From: Candidatus Nomurabacteria bacterium GW2011_GWA1_36_15
Lineage (GTDB): Bacteria > Patescibacteriota > Minisyncoccia > Phycocordibacterales > UBA9973
Length of the DNA: 64,000 nt
Direction: 5' to 3'
NCBI GenBank assembly: GCA_000991415.1
Contig: LBRM01000004.1
Location: forward strand, 1,398-65,397
In this document: one piece after another, positions 3,841 to 64,000 of the stretch
Numbering within the stretch: position 1 is the stretch's first letter
Layout of the letters: each line of letters begins with the position of its first letter
Notes under the pieces: model-generated
The model's database searches: none
Seen by the model: only the letters and a program-made list of their open reading frames with translations
Told to the model about the DNA's origin: nothing
Translations under genes and position numbers: made by a program

Positions 3841-5928
3841 ATGGCTAAAGAAAAAGAGATAAAAAGTGGGCATCATTATGATGCCTCAGATATATCGGTT
3901 CTCGAAGGACTTGATCCGGTTAGACGTCGTCCCGGAATGTATATCGGAACCACAGGTCCCGAAGGATTACATCATTTAGTTTGGGAAATTTTTGATAACT
4001 CACGCGATGAAGCGATGGGTGGTTTTTGTGATGATATAGAAGTTGTGCTTTTACCAAATAATCGTGTTCGTGTGGCAGACAATGGCAGAGGCGTGCCTGT
4101 TGATATACATAAAAAAACTAAAGTATCCGCCTTAGAAACGGTAATGACCACACTTCATGCCGGAGGAAAATTCGGAGGGGAAAACAGTGGATATAAAGTT
4201 TCTGGAGGATTGCATGGTGTTGGGGCCTCCGTTGTGAATGCGCTTTCTATTTACTGTAAAGCAGAAGTGCACAAAGATGGTGGCAAATATATCCAGGAAT
4301 ATTCTCAGGGTAAGAAAAAATCTCTGGTGAAAAAAGTCAATTCTTCCAAGTTGCATGGAACTATTATCACTTTTGAACCAGATAAAGAAATTTTTAAAGA
4401 TATAAAATTTGATTGGAATACGATTATTGGTCACATTCGTCAACAAGCATATTTGGTAAAAGGGCTTAAAATTTTAATAATTGATGCTCGGGGATACGAG
4501 GGAAAAATAGATGATTCAGATGTTTTCTATTTTAGAGAGCTGGGACTTGAATTGCCTTCTGTCTCTTTTTATTTTGAGGGAGGGCTTACTTCGCTTATAA
4601 AATATTATAATAAGTTTCAGAAACCGGTTCATAATAGTATTTTTTATGTCGAGAAAGAATTGGATAATGTACTAGTAGAAATAGCTCTTCAATATGTGGA
4701 TGATATTGTGGACCGTATCATTCCTTTTGCCAACAATATTTATACGGGAGAAGGTGGCACGCATGTGACTGGCTTTAAAACTGCATTAACTAGAACCCTA
4801 AACACCTACTGCAAAAAAAATGAAATGATGAAAGAATCGGAAGGTGGTTTTACAGGGGATGATGTTTTAGAAGGTTTGACTTGTGTTATTTCCGTTAAGC
4901 TTCGGGAAATCCAATTTGAGGGCCAAACAAAAGCAAAATTGGGTTCTATGGAAGCACAGGGTGCCGTTGGTACCGTATTCGGGGAAACATTTACAAACTT
5001 TCTAGAAGAAAATCCAGATGAAGCGAAAGCTATAATTAATAAATCTGTGCTTGCTTTAAAAGCACGTAAAGCCGCCAAGGCAGCAAAAGATTCGGTACTT
5101 CGCAAAGGTGCGCTTGAAGGTATGACCCTTCCTGGTAAATTAGCAGATTGTCAAAGTAAAAGTGCAGAAGAATCTGAATTATTTTTAGTGGAAGGAGATT
5201 CAGCTGGTGGTTCAGCCAAACAAGGCAGAGATAGACGCATTCAAGCGGTGTTGCCTCTTCGCGGAAAAATTTTAAATGTTGAACGCGCGCGCATAGATAA
5301 AATGTTGGCCTCTAAAGAAGTAAGAGCTCTAGTTATTGCTATGGGAACTTCTATTGGAGATACTTTTGATCTTTCTAAAATGCGTTATCATAAAATAATT
5401 ATTGCGACAGATGCTGATGTTGATGGGGCGCATATTCGTACCCTTTTACTTACTCTTTTTTATAGATATTTTAGACAAGTCATTGAAACGGGATATATTT
5501 ATATTGCCCAACCACCGCTTTATAAGATAAAAAAAGGCAAAGAAATCAGTTATGCTTATTCTGATGCAGAAAAAATAAAAATTATTGGGAAAGAAACCGA
5601 TGTAAGTGAAATACAAGCGGTAGAAACTGATGTTGAAGTTCCGGAAGGGGAAATTATTGAAAATGAAAAATCACCCGCCCGAACGGCCGAGGCCTCTCGG
5701 TCGGGCGGGAATAAAATTCATATCCAACGCTACAAAGGTCTCGGGGAAATGAATCCGGAGGAACTCTGGGAAACGACTATGGATCCGGCCCATCGCGTAC
5801 TGAAGAAAGTAAATATAGACGATGCCGAAGAAGCCAATAAAGTTTTTGAAATTCTAATGGGCTCTGAAGTTCCTCCTCGCAAATCTTTTATTCAGTCCAA
5901 CGCCAAATTAGCGGAGATTGATATTTAA
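3841..5928 (+). CDS. gyrB: DNA gyrase subunit B
   Basis: GHKL ATPase HHLVWEIFDNSRDEAMGG, LHGVGASVVNALS; TOPRIM EGDSAGGSAKQGRDRR, IIIATDADVDGAHIRTLLLTLFYRY, PPLYKI. Confidence 0.95.
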   Translation: MAKEKEIKSGHHYDASDISVLEGLDPVRRRPGMYIGTTGPEGLHHLVWEIFDNSRDEAMGGFCDDIEVVLLPNNRVRVADNGRGVPVDIHKKTKVSALETVMTTLHAGGKFGGENSGYKVSGGLHGVGASVVNALSIYCKAEVHKDGGKYIQEYSQGKKKSLVKKVNSSKLHGTIITFEPDKEIFKDIKFDWNTIIGHIRQQAYLVKGLKILIIDARGYEGKIDDSDVFYFRELGLELPSVSFYFEGGLTSLIKYYNKFQKPVHNSIFYVEKELDNVLVEIALQYVDDIVDRIIPFANNIYTGEGGTHVTGFKTALTRTLNTYCKKNEMMKESEGGFTGDDVLEGLTCVISVKLREIQFEGQTKAKLGSMEAQGAVGTVFGETFTNFLEENPDEAKAIINKSVLALKARKAAKAAKDSVLRKGALEGMTLPGKLADCQSKSAEESELFLVEGDSAGGSAKQGRDRRIQAVLPLRGKILNVERARIDKMLASKEVRALVIAMGTSIGDTFDLSKMRYHKIIIATDADVDGAHIRTLLLTLFYRYFRQVIETGYIYIAQPPLYKIKKGKEISYAYSDAEKIKIIGKETDVSEIQAVETDVEVPEGEIIENEKSPARTAEASRSGGNKIHIQRYKGLGEMNPEELWETTMDPAHRVLKKVNIDDAEEANKVFEILMGSEVPPRKSFIQSNAKLAEIDI

Positions 5929-57276: not shown

Positions 57277-58908
57277 ATGAAAAACATTAAATCAAAAGTC
57301 TTATCATTCGCTATCGTTTTGTTTTTGCTTCTTTCTTTTGGCAGTTTGAATACTTCAATAGCCCAAGCTGTTGAAGCTCAGCCTGTTTGCACTCTTGAAC
57401 AAATATCCGGCAGAACCATTGTTGACCTTACTCCTTATAACGGATTACGTTCAGATTCGGATGAAGCGGCTGCTACAGGAGGACCGTTTGCTACAGTATT
57501 AGTAGCAGGAACATATGATGTAACCTTGCAGTCTTATGATAATCATACAGAGAAAAATCAAATCCAGCCAAATGAACAGTGGTATCTTATTTTGAAAGAT
57601 ATAGGAGATAGCACTATTGCCACCACTTCTGCCATTAGTGATTTACCTGACGATATAGACAACTTGACAGAAATCGTGGATACAAATTTTGTTTTAACGA
57701 GTTCTGTTACATCAGCCACAACCTATCATGATGCTTATCCAGATTCTACTAGTGCAAATAGTATCCGTCCTGTCTGTGCAGCCTTTGATTTAGTTCTTCC
57801 CCCAACCGCTACCATTGAAGCTGTAAAAATTATTTGTCCGACCGAAGATCTACTTCCGAATTGGGGAGCAGGTGGAGAAGACATAACATCCGATACTGCA
57901 AGTGCTTTTTTGGAAGCTAATCCGACTTGTTATACTGAAGATTGGACATTTGAATGGGCTCCAGACAGTACGGTAAATCCAGGCAACCAGACAGAAACGG
58001 GAGGTGAGGATTGGACTGCTTTCACTTCTAGCGCTACAGTTCCAGCAGGAGCCTTAATCTGGGTTCGCGAACAATTCAATAGTGATTACATTTCATTTAG
58101 CGGAGACACTACCGAACCCCGAGATGAAGATGTTTCCGCGGAATTTTACTGCAGTAACGATGTATTAAATTATGATAACTATGATTTTATTGACCCGGTA
58201 GAAGCAGACCAGACTTACTACTGCGTAGGATTCAATGCGCCGATAGAACAACCGACAACAAATCCGCAATGTTCCGATGATGTTGATAATGACGGGGATG
58301 AACTTATAGATTCTGCCGACCCAGGCTGTCATAGTGATGGGAATGCAAGCGATACAGAATCATATGTTCCTAGTGACAATGATGAAACGGATGAAGATGA
58401 TGACGGTGGCGGAGGTGGTGGCGGGGGAAGTGGCAGCCATACGCGATGTTCCGATAACGACGATGGATTAGTAGATAGCGCTGACCCTGGATGCCATTCT
58501 GACGGTAATGCAAGTAATGCTGACTCATACGTTCCATCTGATAGTGACGAACAAAATGGAGGTCAAGTGCTCGGCGCTCAGACTTCCTGCGGTATTTATG
58601 TTGATAAATATCTGCGCAGGGGTTATAAAAACGACGCAGAGGCGGTTAAAAAAGTACAGCTATTTTTGAATGATTACTTGAAATTAAAATTAGAAGTAGA
58701 CGGAATCTATGGGTCTAAAACCGAAGAAGCGGTAAGGGTTTTCCAGATTTTGCACAAAGATAAGATTTTAACCCCATGGGGTGTTACGGCTTCTACCGGC
58801 ATATTCTATCTGACCACTCAAACCGAGGTGAATAATATTATGTGTCCGGATTTGAACTTGCAAATTCCAAGCAACTTGATTAACTTTACCGCTAGTATGA
58901 TTAATTGA
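57277..58908 (+). CDS. secreted repeat-containing protein with C-terminal peptidoglycan-binding (PG_binding_1-like) domain
   Basis: Signal peptide; two ~40-aa Asp-rich repeats CSDxxDNDGDxLxDSADPGCHSDGNASxxxSYVPSDxDE separated by poly-Gly; C-terminus VQLFLNDYLKLKLEVDGIYGSKTEEAVRVFQ. Confidence 0.6.
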   Translation: MKNIKSKVLSFAIVLFLLLSFGSLNTSIAQAVEAQPVCTLEQISGRTIVDLTPYNGLRSDSDEAAATGGPFATVLVAGTYDVTLQSYDNHTEKNQIQPNEQWYLILKDIGDSTIATTSAISDLPDDIDNLTEIVDTNFVLTSSVTSATTYHDAYPDSTSANSIRPVCAAFDLVLPPTATIEAVKIICPTEDLLPNWGAGGEDITSDTASAFLEANPTCYTEDWTFEWAPDSTVNPGNQTETGGEDWTAFTSSATVPAGALIWVREQFNSDYISFSGDTTEPRDEDVSAEFYCSNDVLNYDNYDFIDPVEADQTYYCVGFNAPIEQPTTNPQCSDDVDNDGDELIDSADPGCHSDGNASDTESYVPSDNDETDEDDDGGGGGGGGSGSHTRCSDNDDGLVDSADPGCHSDGNASNADSYVPSDSDEQNGGQVLGAQTSCGIYVDKYLRRGYKNDAEAVKKVQLFLNDYLKLKLEVDGIYGSKTEEAVRVFQILHKDKILTPWGVTASTGIFYLTTQTEVNNIMCPDLNLQIPSNLINFTASMIN

Positions 58909-59179
58909 ATACTATTTCCTTAAATAGCTTAAAATTCTGATGAGAATCAGCCTTTTTGGCGTTGTTAATTTGCGAGTATAATTTCTAAAGGACATAATAT
59001 AAACATGTCCGATAAAGCATTGATGTTCGATAGAAAATGATAAAATTATTTTAGCAATGGGGATTTTTGTATTTTGAAGTTATACACATGTTGTATATGT
59101 TTTTGGTTTTTTTTGCTTACTTTTTGGTTGCTTTTTGATATAATAAACACCATATTATTAATAATTAATTATAAAAATT

Positions 59180-59992
59180 ATGACTAAGAAAACTTTTTTT
59201 ATTCTTTTTGTAGTCTTGTTTCTTACCGGTATTTTAACCAGTAATGCAAATGCGAATCATTCATGGAATGGATATCACTGGGCCCGTACAGGGAATCCAT
59301 TCACCTTAAAACTGGGAGATAATGTCTCTTCCTTGTGGGATAACTATCTTGGAGTTGCATCAACTGATTGGACTCTGTCATCGGTTTTAAATACTACTAT
59401 TGTATCTGGACTTGGAGGTAAAAATTGTAAACCATCTGCCGGTCGAGTTGAAGTCTGTAATAAGAAATATGGAAATAATGGCTGGCTTGGTATAGCGCAA
59501 ATATGGGTGAATGGTAGTCATATTACCCAAGCTGTTACAAAAATGAACGATACCTACTTTAATCTAAAAACTTACAATACCCCGGCATGGAAACAATTTG
59601 TGGTTTGCCAAGAAATTGGGCATACGTTCGGACTAGACCATCAAGATGAAAACTTTAGTAACGCGAACTTAGGCACTTGTATGGATTACACTAATGACCC
59701 TGACGGTACTATTAGGGGACAAATGGATAACAAACATCCCAACCAACATGATTACGATATGCTTGAAACAATTTATGCGCATCTAGACAGTTTTAGCACT
59801 CTTCTTGGTAAAATTGGGAAAACCCCTTCTGCATCTATATTGGTAGAAAAAGTAGACGATAACATTGATATTTCAAATTCGTCAGAATGGGGTAAGGTTA
59901 TAAGAAAAGGGAGTGATGGACGTAGCTCTCTCCATGAACGTGACTTAGGTAAAGGAAACAAGGTATTTACCTTTGTTATCTGGGCGGAATAG
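59180..59992 (+). CDS. secreted metzincin-like protein with variant zinc motif QEIGHTFGLDH (first His replaced by Gln) and Met-turn
   Basis: Signal peptide; QEIGHTFGLDHQ cf. matrixin HEFGHSLGLDHS; downstream CMDY Met-turn. Confidence 0.55.
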   Translation: MTKKTFFILFVVLFLTGILTSNANANHSWNGYHWARTGNPFTLKLGDNVSSLWDNYLGVASTDWTLSSVLNTTIVSGLGGKNCKPSAGRVEVCNKKYGNNGWLGIAQIWVNGSHITQAVTKMNDTYFNLKTYNTPAWKQFVVCQEIGHTFGLDHQDENFSNANLGTCMDYTNDPDGTIRGQMDNKHPNQHDYDMLETIYAHLDSFSTLLGKIGKTPSASILVEKVDDNIDISNSSEWGKVIRKGSDGRSSLHERDLGKGNKVFTFVIWAE

Positions 59993-60161
59993 AATATTTT
60001 TAGTTTAAGCAAGGACTGTCCTTGCTTAGCTCAAATAACTTCATAGATATTTATACTTTGCTTTTTAAGTTTTAAGAGATGATTCGTAGATATTTATTGT
60101 TTTTACTTATCCACACAAACTCTTGTGCTTATTTGCAGTATAGCATATAATTTAAACCAAA

Positions 60162-60180
60162 GGTACCCATATTTGGGTAC
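60162..60180. promoter_or_regulatory. inverted repeat ggtacccatatttgggtac in abiEi promoter region (candidate autoregulatory operator)
   Basis: 7-bp perfect arms, 3-nt spacer, between CATATAAT -10-like box and ATG 60206. Confidence 0.45.
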
Positions 60181-60205
60181 TAACAGAGTATACAATCACA
60201 ATACT

Positions 60206-60796
60206 ATGGAAAAAGATTACATTTTAGACCTAATGAGATCAAACAAAACAGTCTTTACTTTCAAAGATGTAATTTTACTGTGGGGAGAATCAGATATGAA
60301 TTTTGTTAAGAAAAAGATTAATCGCTATGTTAAAGCAGGTAAACTAAATGCAATACGTAGAGGTATTTATTCAAAAGACAAAAATTATGATAAATACGAA
60401 TTGGCCACAAAAATATATACTCCTTCATACATTAGTTTGGAAACAGCATTAGGCGCGGCCGGAATCACATTTCAGTTCTATGGCCAGATTTTTGCTGTCT
60501 CCTATCAAACAAAGGAAATTGAATGCGACAAACAAAAATATTCTTATCGTAAAATTAAAGATACTATTCTCACTAATCAAGCCGGTATAGAGTCAAGAGA
60601 AAATTACAATATCGCTTCGCCCGAGAGAGCATTCTTAGATGTTGTCTATCTTAATAAAGATTATCACTTTGATAATCTTTCGGCTTTGAATTGGGATAAG
60701 GTTTATGAAATTTTACCTGTTTATGGTGGTAACAAACGAATGGCAAAAATGGTGAAAATATATCATAAAGCAATGAAACAAAATTTAAAGCAATAA
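60206..60796 (+). CDS. abiEi: AbiEi-family antitoxin/transcriptional regulator (type IV TA / abortive infection)
   Basis: N-terminal wHTH FTFKDVILLWGESDMNFVKKKINRYVKAGKLNAIRRGIY; PSYISLETALGAAGI; ERAFLDVVYL - matches AbiEi conserved blocks. ORF track start 60125 probably too far upstream. Confidence 0.7.
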   Translation: MEKDYILDLMRSNKTVFTFKDVILLWGESDMNFVKKKINRYVKAGKLNAIRRGIYSKDKNYDKYELATKIYTPSYISLETALGAAGITFQFYGQIFAVSYQTKEIECDKQKYSYRKIKDTILTNQAGIESRENYNIASPERAFLDVVYLNKDYHFDNLSALNWDKVYEILPVYGGNKRMAKMVKIYHKAMKQNLKQ

Positions 60797-60823
60797 TCAT
60801 ATTTATAGTGAATTTTTTGAACT

Positions 60824-61528
60824 ATGGCTCTTAATACCGCAAAACATAAAAATATTTTCATAAAAATCCTTAAAGATATCTATACTGATTCCACTATTAG
60901 TACGATTTTAGGATTTAAAGGTGGAACAGCTGCTGCACTTTTCTATAATCTTGACCGTTTCTCGGTAGATTTGGATTTTGATTTGCTTGACGCCGAAAAA
61001 GAGGACTATGTATTTGAACGTGTCAAAGCAATACTTGAAAATTACGGAAAATTAAAGCAGGTACAGAAGAAAAGGTTTAACTTTTTTTACATCCTTTCCT
61101 ATGACGAAAAAGATATTAACGCTCAAAATATCAAGGTGGAAATCAATCGCCGTGAATTTGGCTCAAAATACGATGTGAAATCATTCCTTGGTATTTCTAT
61201 GCAGGTAATGATTAAAGAGGATATGGCCGCCCATAAGCTCTGTGCGATGTACGAGCGAATCGGTAAAACCAATCGAGATATTTTTGATGTGCAATTTATT
61301 TTGGCACATGATTGGCCGGTGAACAAAAAGATTGTTGAGATTCGTACGGGTATGACCTATAAAGATTTTATAAATAAGGCCATTGACGTTATGGAAAAAT
61401 TTAATGACAGAAATATACTTTCCGGTATGGGTGAATTATTGACCGAGAAACAAAAAACATGGGCAAGAGCAAAGCTAAAATCTGATACAATTTTCTTATT
61501 GAAAGTTATGGCTAAGTTCAACAAGTAA
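60824..61528 (+). CDS. abiEii: AbiEii/AbiGii-family nucleotidyltransferase toxin (DUF1814)
   Basis: ILGFKGGTAAALFYNLDRFSVDLDFD (GS/GGTAL...R.S.DLDF NTase core), downstream of abiEi. Confidence 0.7.
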   Translation: MALNTAKHKNIFIKILKDIYTDSTISTILGFKGGTAAALFYNLDRFSVDLDFDLLDAEKEDYVFERVKAILENYGKLKQVQKKRFNFFYILSYDEKDINAQNIKVEINRREFGSKYDVKSFLGISMQVMIKEDMAAHKLCAMYERIGKTNRDIFDVQFILAHDWPVNKKIVEIRTGMTYKDFINKAIDVMEKFNDRNILSGMGELLTEKQKTWARAKLKSDTIFLLKVMAKFNK

Positions 61529-61681
61529 GTGCAACACTTCTAGTAAATAGCAAGGACCGTTCTTACTATTTGTGTTATTTGAGAAGTGGGAGTTGTGGGT
61601 AGTTGTTGTGTAGATTATCAGATTTTTGGGTAGATTTAGTGAATACTTGTGTAGTTTTGGATAATATGATAGTATTTATTT

Positions 61682-62401
61682 ATGGAAGAGGAATTATTTA
61701 CAATCAGCCAGGCGGCTAAATATCTCGGGGTTTCTTTGAATACGTTGCGTCGTTGGGACGAAAACGGTAGATTAATTGCTATAAGAAAAGATGGAGGCAC
61801 TCATCGGTATTATCGAGAAAAAGAGTTAGAAATTTTTGCCAGCGATTTGATGAAATTTGCCTCCGAGTGGATTCAAGAAAGCGTGGAGTTTCCTAATAGG
61901 TTTTATTGTTCAACAAGCTCTATTTTCAACGCAAGACTGACAAAGATGGAGTATGAACTTATGCAAAAACCAGGTTTTGAAAAATTATACTCTTTGATTG
62001 TTTTAATTACTGGAGAAATAGGTGATAATTCATTTGCTCATAATTTGGGTAAGTGGCCTGATACAGCTGGAATTTTTTTTGGATATGATCTCGTCAAACG
62101 TATTATTGTTCTGGCGGATAGAGGATTGGGTATTTTAGAAACATTACGTCAGGTTCGACCAGAACTTCCAAGCCACGTTATGGCGGTGGAAGTTGCGTTT
62201 ACTGAATTCATTTCTGGGCGCTCACCGGAAAAGCGTGGTAATGGACTTAAGCTTGTTCGCGAGGTGGTCCTGGAGCAGTCGATTGATTTATTTTTTACGA
62301 GTGGCGATGCCGAAGTACGCATGAAAGGTTCCGGTAAGGTATTTCATGTTACGCGTGGTCAGCGTATTGTGCGAGGGTGTTTAGCAAAGATAGAGTTTTA
62401 A
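61682..62401 (+). CDS. MerR/excisionase-type HTH fused to GHKL (histidine-kinase-like, RsbW-like) ATPase domain
   Basis: N-terminus TISQAAKYLGVSLNTLRRWDENGRLIAIRKDGGTHRYYREKELEIF; GHKL N-box EIGDNSFAHN, G1 DRGLGI, G2 GNGLKLV. Confidence 0.6.
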   Translation: MEEELFTISQAAKYLGVSLNTLRRWDENGRLIAIRKDGGTHRYYREKELEIFASDLMKFASEWIQESVEFPNRFYCSTSSIFNARLTKMEYELMQKPGFEKLYSLIVLITGEIGDNSFAHNLGKWPDTAGIFFGYDLVKRIIVLADRGLGILETLRQVRPELPSHVMAVEVAFTEFISGRSPEKRGNGLKLVREVVLEQSIDLFFTSGDAEVRMKGSGKVFHVTRGQRIVRGCLAKIEF

Positions 62402-62712
62402 TAAATTTAAAAAAATATATGAAATTACAATTAGAAAAGTTTGGCAAAACATTAATATCACGGGAAGTGGGCAGTGAGGCTTTTAAGGCATTTCAGCCAA
62501 CCTTGCGTGAGTTTTCTAAAGATGAAGAGCTGGAAATAGATTTTTCTGGCGTATTAACATTATCGCCGTCCTGGGCTGATGAATTTTTAAGTCCCTTATT
62601 TGCTCTTCTGGATAATCGCTTAGTGTTTTTACCGAGCGATAATCTTTCAGTGCACGCGACGCTTAAGATTCTAGAAGAGGTTAACAAACGACCATTCAAG
62701 ATTAAATCTTAA
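62377..62712 (+). CDS. DUF4325-like STAS-domain protein (partner of preceding GHKL ATPase; 25-bp overlap)
   Basis: 111 aa; LEIDFSGVLTLSPSWADEFLSPLF resembles STAS/anti-sigma-antagonist-like DUF4325 core. Confidence 0.5.
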   Translation: MFSKDRVLINLKKYMKLQLEKFGKTLISREVGSEAFKAFQPTLREFSKDEELEIDFSGVLTLSPSWADEFLSPLFALLDNRLVFLPSDNLSVHATLKILEEVNKRPFKIKS

Positions 62713-63374
62713 CCTATTTGTTTTTAAAATATTTAAAGGATGTTGGTAAACAATGTGATGTCCGATAGAAAAATCAGTTACTAAATTTTTGTTATTAGCA
62801 CATAACATTGACAAGATGTCTAGTTTATGCTAATGTATAGTTAGTTACTTGAAAGCCCGGTGATGGACACTAGATAATTGCTTTTTATAAAGCAGTTCCC
62901 TTATTTAGTGTTCATCATCGGGCTTTTTTGTTTCTTGTTGACTAGACAAGACCTAGTCAAAGACCTAGTCAAAGCATAATATATAATGGCTATTACTATT
63001 ATACGACCTGAAGCAATAAAACGAAAGGTATGGGGATTTTATACACAGTTTATTAACAGATACTATTTGACATATTTGTGTGAAATGGCAATATAGTTCG
63101 TAGTAGTATATTCACAAACCAATGAATTGGTTTTATGGATAGAAAAATAAATCAAGATTCTTGCTGGGAACCAAGAGTATGGATATTGGAGTAAAGATAA
63201 AAGATCAAGGAATCTGATTTATGTTAAAAAAATTCTCAAGATCAATATTTACTCAATAAATATTCTATATTTATATAAAATCCTATTTGATATAGGATTC
63301 TGTTCTTTAATAAATCCGAATCGTTGTGTTTTGTATTTTATTAAATTTTTCAAAATATAGAAAGGAAAATATGT

Positions 63375-64000
63375 TATGGCAAAACTAATCATCATTGGTA
63401 GCGGGATTGTAGGTAGAGCAACGGGTGGGGGTTTTATTGCTGGAGGGCACGAGGTAGTCTTTTGTGATATTAACTTAGAAGTTTTAGCTAAGTTACAAAA
63501 TCAAGGACATAAAGTTTGTTCTCCAAATTTACTTGAACAAGAGACCAACGTGAAGGCGTTTTTCTTGGCCATATCCACACCAACCGTGGATAACAAAATC
63601 AAACTGGATTTTTTGGAATCAGCTGTCGCTAGTCTGGGGGAAGGTGCTCTAAAAAAATGCAATGACTATTGCATTGTTGTAATAAGAAGTACTGTACCAC
63701 CAAACACGATTGAAAGTACGTTGATTCCTCTTCTTGAAAAATACTCTGGGAAAAAAGCAGGCAAAGATTTTGGTGTCTGCATGAATCCAGAATATTTAAG
63801 AGAAAATAGCAACGAAGAAGATTTCAAAAATCCATGGATTATCGTTATCGGCGAACTGGATATCAAGTCGGGTAAAGTACTTGACGAGATATACGGCCCG
63901 CGTGATTGTCCGATTATTCACACCTCAATCAAGGAAGCGGAGGCGCAAAAATATATCCACAACCTCTTCAACGCCTGTAAAATTTCGTTTTTTAACGAGA
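63375..64000 (+). CDS. ugd: UDP-glucose/GDP-mannose 6-dehydrogenase family protein, N-terminal part (runs off window)
   Basis: Rossmann IIIGSGIVGRATGG; NPEYLRENSNEEDFKNP (cf. NPEFLREGSAIxDF); AAAGGA RBS before ATG. Confidence 0.7.

What the first reader, a model, noticed from the sequence alone, without database searches (positions are those of the whole stretch)
61682..62712. Translationally coupled HTH-GHKL ATPase and DUF4325/STAS-like pair next to AbiE: a partner-switching-like module of unknown role
Gene 1 fuses a MerR/excisionase-type HTH to a GHKL ATPase (RsbW-like N-box, G1 and G2 motifs). Gene 2 overlaps it by 25 bp and resembles STAS/anti-sigma-antagonist-like DUF4325. This looks like an RsbW/RsbV-type kinase and antagonist pair, but with the kinase carrying its own DNA-binding domain. 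That would give a direct phosphorylation- or ATP-controlled transcription switch, with no sigma factor involved. It lies within a defence-like island and adjacent to the SD+ATGTCC motif site.
Basis: partly seen in the sequence, partly recalled or inferred. Interest (0 to 1): 0.55.

Follow-up and report, generated by a model that had tools for sequence, protein, structure and literature searches.

The report
DNA-binding RsbW-like ATPase with STAS partner
This is a two-gene module, strongly conserved across Patescibacteria (CPR): a DNA-binding domain fused to an anti-sigma-kinase-like ATPase, plus a small STAS-fold partner, which most likely regulates its own promoter through three evenly spaced direct repeats; nobody has characterised it.

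Summary

The pair is conserved in about 160 Patescibacteria loci at 65-90% amino-acid identity, although synonymous sites are near saturation and the neighbours vary. AbiE adjacency is incidental (3 of 148 immediate neighbours). The downstream palindromes are not conserved.

The conserved DNA element lies upstream: three or four direct repeats, TGnnTAGATTT, spaced 20-21 bp. The last repeat supplies the -35 of an extended -10 promoter that probably gives a leaderless mRNA. The variable dinucleotide covaries with HTH residue 20, which corresponds to a base-contacting residue in BldC.

Best reading: a self-regulating, sigma-independent, partner-switching-like switch. Kinase activity, the direction of regulation and the physiological output are inferred. 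I rate it a new variant of a known kind, of moderately high interest.

The parts
61596..61605 (+). Extra upstream repeat unit R0 (TGGGTAGTTG), 11 bp before R1
   Evidence: Read from the sequence. A fourth unit occurs in about 20% of related loci, usually at -96/-97 from the ATG.
61607..61616 (+). Direct repeat R1 (TGTGTAGATT), proposed HTH binding unit
   Evidence: The position class -75/-76 from the ATG is found in most of 126 non-redundant loci.
61627..61636 (+). Direct repeat R2 (TGGGTAGATT), 20 bp after R1
   Evidence: Position class -55/-56; consensus TTTtTGggTAGaTTT.
61648..61657 (+). Direct repeat R3 (TGTGTAGTTT), 21 bp after R2; it overlaps the -35 hexamer TTGTGT (61647-61652)
   Evidence: Consensus cTTGtgTAGATTT at -34/-35 from the ATG in 115 non-redundant loci.
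61667..61675 (+). Extended -10 element (TG-a-TAGTAT), 17 nt after the -35. The ATG follows 6 nt later, so a leaderless mRNA is predicted.
   Evidence: Conserved TATGaTAnnAT block with a fixed 6-7 nt distance to the ATG. The transcription start is inferred, not measured.
61682..61846 (+). Gene 1, residues 1-55: BldC/excisionase-like winged HTH. N20 and R24 lie on the recognition helix.
61847..61981 (+). Gene 1, residues 56-100: helical linker (conserved W63 and F82)
   Evidence: AF2 helices 56-65 and 79-95. Conservation.
61982..62401 (+). Gene 1, residues 101-239 plus stop: SpoIIAB/RsbW-like GHKL ATP-binding domain. N-box 62015-62044, G1 62117-62131, G2 62234-62251.
62402..62418 (+). Intergenic spacer, A-rich (AAAAAAATAT before the ATG), no Shine-Dalgarno
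   Evidence: Conserved AAAAATAT-ATG; 8 of 128 distinct spacers have an SD-like tetramer.
62419..62712 (+). Gene 2, 97 aa: STAS-fold DUF4325-like partner. Invariant P50-S51-W52-x-D54-E55-F56, with S51 (62569-62571) at the N-cap of helix 2.
62851..62934 (+). Long, perfect hairpin plus U-tract. Probably the local terminator. Not part of the conserved module.
   Evidence: RNA fold -49.3 kcal/mol, z -11.75. Downstream regions of other loci show no similarity to it.

Best explanation
This is a self-contained, autoregulated two-gene switch.

Gene 1 encodes a BldC-like winged HTH joined by a helical linker to a SpoIIAB/RsbW-type GHKL ATP-binding domain. Gene 2 encodes a STAS-fold (DUF4325) partner.

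- DNA binding: the HTH binds three (sometimes four) direct repeats, TG-nn-TAGATTT. They are spaced 20-21 bp apart, so they sit on one face of the helix. The promoter-proximal repeat overlaps the -35 of the operon's own extended -10, probably leaderless, promoter. Occupancy therefore most likely represses the operon.
- Partner binding: the GHKL domain binds ATP. By analogy with SpoIIAB-SpoIIAA, RsbW-RsbV and SiaB-SiaC, it binds the STAS partner in a nucleotide-dependent way and probably phosphorylates it on the invariant Ser51 at the N-cap of helix 2.
- Switching: binding and release of the partner changes the oligomeric state or DNA affinity of the HTH-GHKL protein. The ATP/ADP state, or an unknown signal acting on the STAS protein, is thereby converted directly into promoter occupancy without a sigma factor.

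Shown here: the folds, the motifs, the obligate pairing, the repeat architecture, and the covariation between the HTH and the repeats.

Inferred: ATP use, phosphotransfer, repression rather than activation, and the physiological output.
For: Folds and motifs
- Gene 2 matches SpoIIAA, RsbV and MlaB.
- The GHKL N-box, G1 and G2 are invariant in 46 divergent relatives.
- S51 and the PSWxDEF motif are invariant, including in 41-47%-identical partners.

Pairing
- The genes are adjacent and co-oriented in 79/80 genome loci.
- The same holds in divergent relatives that carry other HTH types or none.

Operator
- Repeats lie at -75, -55 and -34 from the ATG in about 115 non-redundant loci. They are conserved even though four-fold synonymous sites are near saturation.
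- Phased repeat pairs occur 288 times in these promoters and 0 times elsewhere in 1.3 Mb of flanks.

Specificity covariation
- Residue 20 is N with TG(G/T)GTAG (67/70 loci), D with TGCATAG (38/38) and Q with TGTATAG (one locus). Mutual information is 0.83, against at most 0.39 for any column outside the HTH.
- The repeat class changes about 16 times on a tree built from residues 60-239.
- Residue 20 aligns with BldC Lys26 and invariant R24 with BldC Arg30. These are the two base-contacting residues of BldC, which binds direct repeats head-to-tail (PMC5859096).
- A 45%-identical relative with D20 has ACATAGATTT just after its -10. A 49%-identical relative with T20 has AATGAGTAGGTT twice, 21 bp apart. 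An HTH-less relative has no such motif.
Against: - No biochemical data exist.
- No Pfam HATPase or STAS model reaches threshold on the window proteins.
- No PP2C-type phosphatase appears among recurrent neighbours, so a reversible phospho-switch is incomplete.
- The promoter repeats and the HTH codons are less than 150 bp apart. Recombination could move them together, which would inflate the apparent number of independent covariation events.
- No second target site was found in the 64-kb window or in the flanks. The output beyond self-regulation is therefore unknown.
- Repeat spacing is 20-21 bp, unlike the contiguous 9-10 bp units of BldC, so the binding geometry must differ.
Confidence: 0.58

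Rival explanations
1. A toxin-antitoxin or abortive-infection-like defence cassette. The GHKL kinase phosphorylates an essential host or phage target when freed. The STAS protein is its pseudo-substrate antitoxin or sensor. The HTH only provides the operon autoregulation typical of TA systems (compare HipBA).
For: - It is a compact two-gene autoregulated operon with no other operator sites nearby.
- It sits in variable regions. The most recurrent families within +/-6 kb are type I RM, Schlafen-type helicase, GIY-YIG, NYN, Fic and AbiE.
- DUF4325 is reported as coupled to VapC-like PIN.4 genes (PMC5499597) and occurs in a Francisella prophage accessory region (PMC7924643).
- Operator-like arrays occur in some viral contigs.
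Against: - Both proteins are under very strong purifying selection: 75-90% identity with saturated synonymous sites. They are far more conserved than TypA, ABC-F or P-type ATPase orthologues in the same genome pairs. This is atypical for defence and TA genes.
- There is no PADLOC system match beyond a generic HTH.
- Many loci are flanked by housekeeping genes.
- The pair is nearly absent from viral contigs and absent from plasmids.
Confidence: 0.14
2. An ATP-driven clamp rather than a kinase. The GHKL domain dimerises on ATP, like MutL, GyrB or MORC, to bring HTH domains into register on the phased repeats. The STAS protein modulates ATPase turnover and is not phosphorylated.
For: - A 20-21 bp repeat spacing needs protein-mediated bridging.
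- No phosphatase partner was seen.
- MlaB, a non-phosphorylated STAS regulator of an ATPase, is the top hit for gene 2.
Against: - The domain lacks a transducer domain.
- The N-box follows the ExxxNxxxH signature as I recall it for RsbW/SpoIIAB; that is from memory, not tested here.
- An invariant Ser sits at the position I infer, from secondary-structure order, to be the SpoIIAA/RsbV phospho-acceptor position.
Confidence: 0.15
3. A genuine anti-sigma factor. The GHKL domain sequesters a sigma factor encoded elsewhere, possibly the primary one, and the STAS protein releases it. The HTH merely tethers or autoregulates.
For: - The closest structures are anti-sigma factors.
- Interaction with the conserved transcription machinery would explain the extreme conservation.
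- The repeats contain -35-like TTGnnT.
Against: - No sigma-factor gene recurs next to the pair.
- Partner-switch modules without a sigma factor exist, such as SiaB/SiaC.
- Nothing tested here addresses sigma binding.
Confidence: 0.08
4. An accessory regulator or recombination directionality factor of an integrative mobile element. The excisionase-type HTH acts at the repeats to control excision.
For: - There are HTH_17/excisionase hits.
- One viral contig has a 49% relative directly after a serine integrase.
- Serine recombinases occur in 2/148 immediate neighbours.
- The gene tree does not follow taxonomy.
Against: - An integrase or recombinase is absent from nearly all neighbourhoods.
- The repeats are always in the module's own promoter, not at element ends.
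- Synonymous saturation argues against recent mobility.
Confidence: 0.05

Closest known systems
SpoIIAB-SpoIIAA and RsbW-RsbV partner-switching modules (Bacillus)
   Same: - A small GHKL domain of about 140 aa with ExxxNxxxH, DxGxG and GxGL motifs, encoded in the same operon as a STAS-fold protein of about 100 aa.
- These are the best structural matches for both proteins.
- A conserved Ser lies at the N-cap of STAS helix 2.
   Different: - The GHKL protein carries an N-terminal DNA-binding domain and a helical linker.
- No sigma factor or PP2C phosphatase is in the operon.
- Gene order is kinase then STAS.
- The STAS protein belongs to DUF4325 (motif PSWxDEF) and not to the DSSG-type anti-sigma antagonists.
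- Sequence identity is only 7-15%.
SiaB-SiaC (Pseudomonas aeruginosa; PDB 6kko)
   Same: - A sigma-independent partner switch: an RsbW-like kinase plus a divergent STAS-like protein (DUF1987).
   Different: - The SiaC output is a diguanylate cyclase, and the system includes the SiaA phosphatase (from my own knowledge).
- It has no DNA-binding domain.
BldC (Streptomyces; PDB 6AMK/6AMA; PMC5859096)
   Same: - A MerR-like winged HTH without a coiled coil that binds direct repeats directionally.
- It is the best PDB sequence hit and has rmsd 1.4 A.
- The base-contacting residues K26 and R30 align with the covarying residue 20 and the invariant R24.
- An AT-rich tract lies next to the recognised bases.
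   Different: - BldC is a 68-aa stand-alone protein that binds contiguous 9-10 bp repeats and controls a developmental regulon.
- Here the HTH is fused to a GHKL domain, repeats are 20-21 bp apart, and they were found only at the module's own promoter.
- The NCBIfam HTH_BldC score is 28.6, against a cut-off of 77.
Pfam DUF4325 (STAS-like domain of unknown function)
   Same: - Gene 2 and all 32 orthologues tested hit it (best E 3e-6).
- Many database homologues carry the precomputed PF14213 assignment.
   Different: - The window protein scores 20.4 bits, below the 23-bit cut-off.
- DUF4325 has no assigned function. It pairs with other partners elsewhere: PIN.4 and a 293-aa prophage protein.
HipBA-type kinase toxin-antitoxin operons
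   Same: A two-gene operon, autoregulated through an HTH, that contains a protein kinase-like component.
   Different: - HipA has a different fold, and the HTH is on the antitoxin (from my own knowledge).
- No toxicity evidence exists here.
- Conservation is far higher than is usual for TA genes.

Membership tests
GHKL (Bergerat-fold) ATPase/kinase superfamily | Bergerat alpha/beta sandwich fold | tested here: met
GHKL (Bergerat-fold) ATPase/kinase superfamily | N-box Asn (Mg2+), G1 DxGxG and G2 GxxGxG-type motifs | tested here: met
   E112, N116, H120, D146, G148, G150, G186 and G188 are invariant in 46 relatives of 31-50% identity.
GHKL (Bergerat-fold) ATPase/kinase superfamily | Significant match to a Pfam HATPase model | tested here: not met
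   No HATPase hit for the window protein at E<=1. There are weak HATPase_c_2 hits in 7/46 relatives (best 8.7e-4) and HATPase_c hits in 3/46.
GHKL (Bergerat-fold) ATPase/kinase superfamily | ATP binding or hydrolysis | not testable with these tools
   Needs biochemistry.
Anti-sigma serine kinases (SpoIIAB/RsbW) with STAS antagonist | Encoded next to a STAS-fold partner | tested here: met
Anti-sigma serine kinases (SpoIIAB/RsbW) with STAS antagonist | Phosphorylates a conserved Ser/Thr at the N-terminus of STAS helix 2 | tested here: inconclusive
   Invariant S51 lies at the N-cap of helix 50-67. Equivalence to SpoIIAA Ser58 was judged from secondary-structure order, not from a superposition. 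Phosphotransfer is untested.
Anti-sigma serine kinases (SpoIIAB/RsbW) with STAS antagonist | Binds and inhibits a cognate sigma factor, usually co-encoded | tested here: not met
   No sigma-factor gene appears among the recurrent neighbours. Binding to a distal sigma factor is not testable here.
Anti-sigma serine kinases (SpoIIAB/RsbW) with STAS antagonist | PP2C phosphatase (RsbU/RsbP/SpoIIE) resets the antagonist | tested here: not met
   None was seen among neighbour families. The rest of the genomes was not searched.
STAS domain / DUF4325 | STAS fold (four- or five-stranded beta sheet with flanking helices) | tested here: met
STAS domain / DUF4325 | Pfam PF14213 above the gathering score | tested here: inconclusive
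   The window protein scores 20.4 bits against a cut-off of 23. All 32 orthologues hit at E<0.1, best 3e-6. Many database homologues carry the precomputed PF14213 assignment.
BldC family of MerR-like regulators | MerR-type winged HTH lacking the coiled-coil dimerisation helix | tested here: met
BldC family of MerR-like regulators | Binds direct repeats, not palindromes | tested here: inconclusive
   Conserved direct repeats lie in its own promoter, and residue 20 covaries with them. Binding was not measured.
BldC family of MerR-like regulators | NCBIfam NF033787 above cut-off; small stand-alone protein | tested here: not met
   28.6 bits against a cut-off of 77. The protein is 239 aa with a fused GHKL domain.
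Known anti-phage defence systems (PADLOC) | Match to a system's component models | tested here: not met
   Only the HTH matches mad1 (residues 1-53). Gene 2 has no hit.

The most novel reading that the evidence does not exclude
The pair is a lineage-wide master switch of Patescibacteria. A DNA-tethered, anti-sigma-like kinase and its STAS partner read the cell's ATP/ADP state, or a host-derived signal, and gate growth against dormancy in these energy-poor episymbionts. It would act on its own promoter and also on distal genomic or phage-borne operator arrays; operator-like TGCATAGATTT arrays were seen in some viral contigs. That role would explain why both proteins are more conserved than translation GTPases across CPR classes.
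Probability: 0.12. Interest if true: 0.85.

Novelty: new variant of a known kind. Interest (0 to 1): 0.6.

Why it matters
Partner-switching modules normally act through a sigma factor or an enzyme. Here the kinase-like component is itself the DNA-binding protein, which would be the shortest possible route from ATP or phosphorylation state to promoter occupancy.

The module is confined largely to Patescibacteria, whose regulation is almost unknown. It is very strongly conserved. It also comes with a ready-made, testable recognition code: residue 20 N, D or Q against the repeat dinucleotide GG/TG, CA or TA.

That combination makes it an unusually tractable entry point for studying gene regulation in uncultivated CPR bacteria in vitro. 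It would also give DUF4325 a first functional context.

Tried and rejected
- Direct Pfam, NCBIfam and PADLOC scans gave only the HTH and a sub-threshold DUF4325 hit. PDB sequence searches, with the single protein and with a profile, found only HTH proteins.
- The 111-aa ORF from GTG 62377 was rejected as the gene 2 model.
- The downstream palindromes and repeats at 62938-62975 were rejected as the operator. Regions downstream of gene 2 in other loci share nothing with the window.
- Rfam found nothing meaningful in 59000-64000.
- An apparent gene 1-gene 2 fusion in L059 is an artefact of masked Ns.
- Recent horizontal transfer was rejected as the cause of the high identity, because four-fold degenerate sites are only about 40-50% identical. 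Older transfer among CPR lineages remains likely, since the nearest relatives of the Peregrinibacteria copy are from Parcubacteria-type MAGs.
- A phage or plasmid origin was rejected: 1 hit in 2.9 M viral contigs, none in cultured phages or plasmids, and no viral structure with this architecture.
- Literature searches for DUF4325, 'STAS-like'+GHKL, and partner-switching+Patescibacteria found no functional study.
- A complex prediction could not be run. The afdb50 fold library was unavailable.
- The taxonomy of divergent representatives could not be obtained.
Full report
**1. What is in the sequence**

ORF listing shows gene 1 at 61682-62401 (239 aa). It also shows an ORF at 62377-62712 whose first possible start is a GTG inside gene 1.

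Database homologues of the second protein are 96-98 aa. In 157 of 157 related loci the conserved N-terminus MKLxLEKFG begins at an ATG. In 115 of them no upstream in-frame start exists at all. Gene 2 therefore starts at ATG 62419.

The genes are separated by 17 nt, so they do not overlap by 25 bp. In other loci the spacer is 3-65 nt, with a median of about 20. It is A-rich, ends in a conserved AAAAATAT-ATG, and has a Shine-Dalgarno-like tetramer in only 8 of 128 distinct spacers.

The window protein is identical to a hypothetical protein of a Candidatus Peregrinibacteria MAG.

**2. Domains**

- Sequence models see only the N-terminal HTH: HTH_17 and MerR, the excisionase TIGRFAM and a weak HTH_BldC match, and mad1 in PADLOC. 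DUF4325 is just below threshold for gene 2 (20.4 bits against 23).
- A library-wide search with residues 60-239 found a small family: 287 representatives at the 50% identity level.
- An alignment of 46 divergent members shows invariant E112, N116, H120 and N121; D146, G148 and G150; and R185, G186, G188, L189 and K190. These are the GHKL N-box, G1 and G2.
- Seven of the 46 members weakly hit HATPase_c_2, the RsbW/SpoIIAB-type Pfam family.
- All 32 gene 2 orthologues tested hit DUF4325.

**3. The pair is an obligate, self-contained unit**

- In 80 species-level genome loci, gene 1 is followed on the same strand by gene 2 in 79. The exception is cut by a contig end.
- Relatives at about 45% identity keep the DUF4325 partner. 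One has a MerR-type HTH (L162). One has no HTH at all and sits between def and fmt (L164).
- Among divergent relatives the N-terminal domain is sometimes replaced by XRE-, MarR- or other wHTH-type domains. A DNA-binding domain is therefore a recurrent, but exchangeable, part of the architecture.
- Divergent partners keep P50-S51-W52-x-D54-E55-F56. S51 sits at the N-cap of helix 2. From secondary-structure order, this is the position of the phosphorylated serine of SpoIIAA/RsbV. That equivalence is my inference, not a superposition.

**4. Genomic context**

Neighbours are heterogeneous. Among 148 non-redundant immediate neighbours, no Pfam family occurs more than three times.

- Defence or mobile-type neighbours: AbiEii 3, Fic 3; EcoRI methylase, RhuM, serine recombinase and Bro-N 2 each.
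- Housekeeping neighbours: EF-G/TypA-type GTPases, DnaJ, Mur ligase and YchF, 2 each.
- Within +/-6 kb of 81 loci the most recurrent families are a Schlafen-type helicase (10 loci), GIY-YIG (10), HsdM (8), NYN (7), a P-type ATPase (7), Fic (5) and HsdR (5).

There is thus a soft tendency to lie in variable, defence-island-like regions, but no fixed partner. The AbiE adjacency in the window is incidental.

The module is essentially absent from mobile-element collections. It gave one relative in 2.9 million viral contigs, next to a serine integrase. It gave none in cultured phages or plasmids, and no viral structure has this architecture.

**5. Unusual conservation**

- Across MAGs labelled Yanofsky-, Doudna-, Komeili-, Taylor-, Uhr-, Falkow-, Nomura-, Staskawicz-, Peregrini-, Kerfeld- and Magasanikbacteria among others, gene 1 is 65-90% identical (mostly 72-90%) and gene 2 66-88% identical.
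- Four-fold degenerate third positions are only about 40-50% identical to the window copy; the median over all pairs is 39%. The high identity therefore reflects strong purifying selection, not recent transfer.
- In the same genome pairs, flanking orthologues are much more diverged: TypA 52% against gene 1 77%, ABC-F 55% against 87%, and P-type ATPase 57% against 80%.
- The gene tree does not follow taxonomy. The Peregrinibacteria copy is closest to Parcubacteria-type copies, so old transfers among CPR lineages are likely.

**6. The conserved DNA element is upstream, not downstream**

Aligning the upstream regions revealed three direct repeats of consensus TG-nn-TAGATTT. They start at -75/-76, -55/-56 and -34/-35 from the ATG, so the spacing is 20-21 bp. 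A fourth unit is present in about 20% of loci.

The proximal repeat begins one base inside a -35-like TTGTGT/TTGCAT. Seventeen nt later comes a conserved extended -10 (TG-a-TAnnAT), and the ATG follows after 6-7 nt. A leaderless transcript is therefore predicted; this is an inference.

In the window the elements are:
- R0: 61596-61605
- R1: 61607-61616
- R2: 61627-61636
- R3: 61648-61657
- -35: 61647-61652
- Extended -10: 61667-61675

Phased repeat pairs occur 288 times in these promoters and never elsewhere in 1.3 Mb of flanking DNA. They do not occur elsewhere in the 64-kb window either.

**7. Evidence that the HTH reads these repeats**

The variable dinucleotide of the repeat covaries with HTH residue 20, the first residue of the recognition helix.

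- N20 goes with TG(G/T)GTAG in 67 of 70 loci.
- D20 goes with TGCATAG in 38 of 38 loci.
- The single Q20 protein has TGTATAG in both scored repeats (R2 and R3).
- Residue 14 (Y or I) follows the same split.
- Mutual information is 0.83 for residue 20 and 0.78 for residue 14. The third-ranked column, residue 19, is also in the HTH (0.47). No column outside the HTH exceeds 0.39.
- On a tree built from residues 60-239, the repeat class changes about 16 times. This is not one deep clade split.

One caveat applies. The repeats and the HTH codons are physically linked, so recombination could move them together.

The alignment to BldC, with the numbering given in the BldC paper, places residue 20 at BldC Lys26 and the invariant R24 at BldC Arg30. 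These are the two residues reported to contact bases in the major groove, while the wing sits in an AT-rich minor groove. BldC binds direct repeats head-to-tail (PMC5859096).

The code extends to distant relatives:
- A 45%-identical protein with D20 has ACATAGATTT immediately after a TTGACA-17-TAATAT promoter.
- A 49%-identical protein with T20 has AATGAGTAGGTT twice, 21 bp apart.
- An HTH-less relative has no such motif.

**8. Mechanism proposed**

The HTH-GHKL protein occupies the phased repeats and probably represses, because R3 overlaps the -35. The 20-21 bp spacing implies that protomers are bridged by their GHKL or linker parts and not by HTH-HTH contacts as in BldC.

By analogy with SpoIIAB/SpoIIAA, RsbW/RsbV and SiaB/SiaC, the STAS partner binds the GHKL domain depending on the bound nucleotide. 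It is probably phosphorylated on S51, and this toggles DNA occupancy.

Because no phosphatase is encoded nearby, resetting may depend on new synthesis from the autoregulated operon or on the ATP/ADP ratio. Everything from ATP binding onward is inference.

**9. Rivals**

- A TA- or Abi-like kinase/antitoxin cassette. This fits the closed autoregulatory loop and the island-like locations. It does not fit the extreme conservation or the housekeeping contexts.
- An ATP-driven clamp without phosphotransfer.
- A true anti-sigma factor for a distal sigma factor.
- A mobile-element excision regulator.

Probabilities and refuting results are given in the Rival explanations section of this report.

**10. 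Comparison and novelty**

The module works like a partner-switching pair but fails three membership features of the anti-sigma class: no co-encoded sigma factor, no phosphatase, and no significant family HMM match. It also adds a DNA-binding domain.

The HTH works like BldC, but it is fused, uses a different repeat spacing and falls below the BldC family threshold.

No paper in the searchable library assigns a function to DUF4325 or describes this architecture.

I rate it a new variant of a known kind, with interest 0.6.

Noticed in passing
window 62810-62934: A promoter-like TTGACA-17-TAATGT at 62810-62838 is followed by a near-perfect hairpin of about 34 bp plus a U-tract (62851-62934; -49.3 kcal/mol, z -11.75). 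It is either a very strong terminator for the pair or a small RNA. It is not conserved downstream of the pair in other loci, and the only Rfam match is a chance-level miRNA hit.
   Followed up: partly
window 62938-62975: An inverted repeat TTGACTAG...CTAGTCAA overlaps a tandem AGACCTAGTCAA x2. It has no counterpart in other loci, and its function is unknown.
   Followed up: partly
L189 10080-10135 (identical in L188); L171 about 5719-5790 (minus strand); also L170, L176, L178, L181, L200: Viral contigs carry arrays that look like the D-class operator, with no gene 1 or HTH homologue in the fetched stretch. One example is AATGAGTAGATT-N10-TGCATAGATTT-N10-TGCATAGATTT inside a non-coding region of about 900 bp between divergent phage genes. 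The pattern hit 38 contigs, against 12 for one permuted control. The N-class pattern hit 0. The enrichment is weak and the meaning is unresolved.
   Followed up: partly
L081 4188-6714: This is the only viral contig encoding a relative (49% identity). The gene sits directly after a large serine recombinase and downstream of a terminase, at the contig end. It is possibly a CPR prophage boundary.
   Followed up: partly
L164 4280-5152 (same in L165): An HTH-less relative (194 aa) and its DUF4325 partner are inserted between peptide deformylase (def) and methionyl-tRNA formyltransferase (fmt), next to rpsP, a KH-domain gene and trmD. This is a purely housekeeping context.
   Followed up: partly
L070 193-597: A second, divergent DUF4325 paralogue (134 aa) lies about 5.5 kb upstream of the canonical pair on the same contig. 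Some genomes may therefore carry two such modules.
   Followed up: no
window 60125-61528: An AbiEi/AbiEii type IV TA / abortive-infection pair (PADLOC 1.4e-62 and 4.8e-73). The AbiEi ORF as listed starts at a GTG, but the model match begins at residue 30, so the true start is probably the ATG near 60206.
   Followed up: partly
window 57277-59992: Two predicted secreted proteins lie upstream. One is 543 aa with an acidic, Gly-rich repeat region and duplicated CSDxxDNDGDxLxDSADPGCHSDGNAS motifs. The other is 270 aa with an HExxH-like QEIGHTFGLDH metalloprotease motif.
   Followed up: no
window 62402-62418 and the equivalent spacers in about 128 loci: Gene 2 is preceded by a conserved A-rich AAAAATAT-ATG with no Shine-Dalgarno, and gene 1 is probably leaderless. 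Both genes appear to use non-SD initiation.
   Followed up: partly
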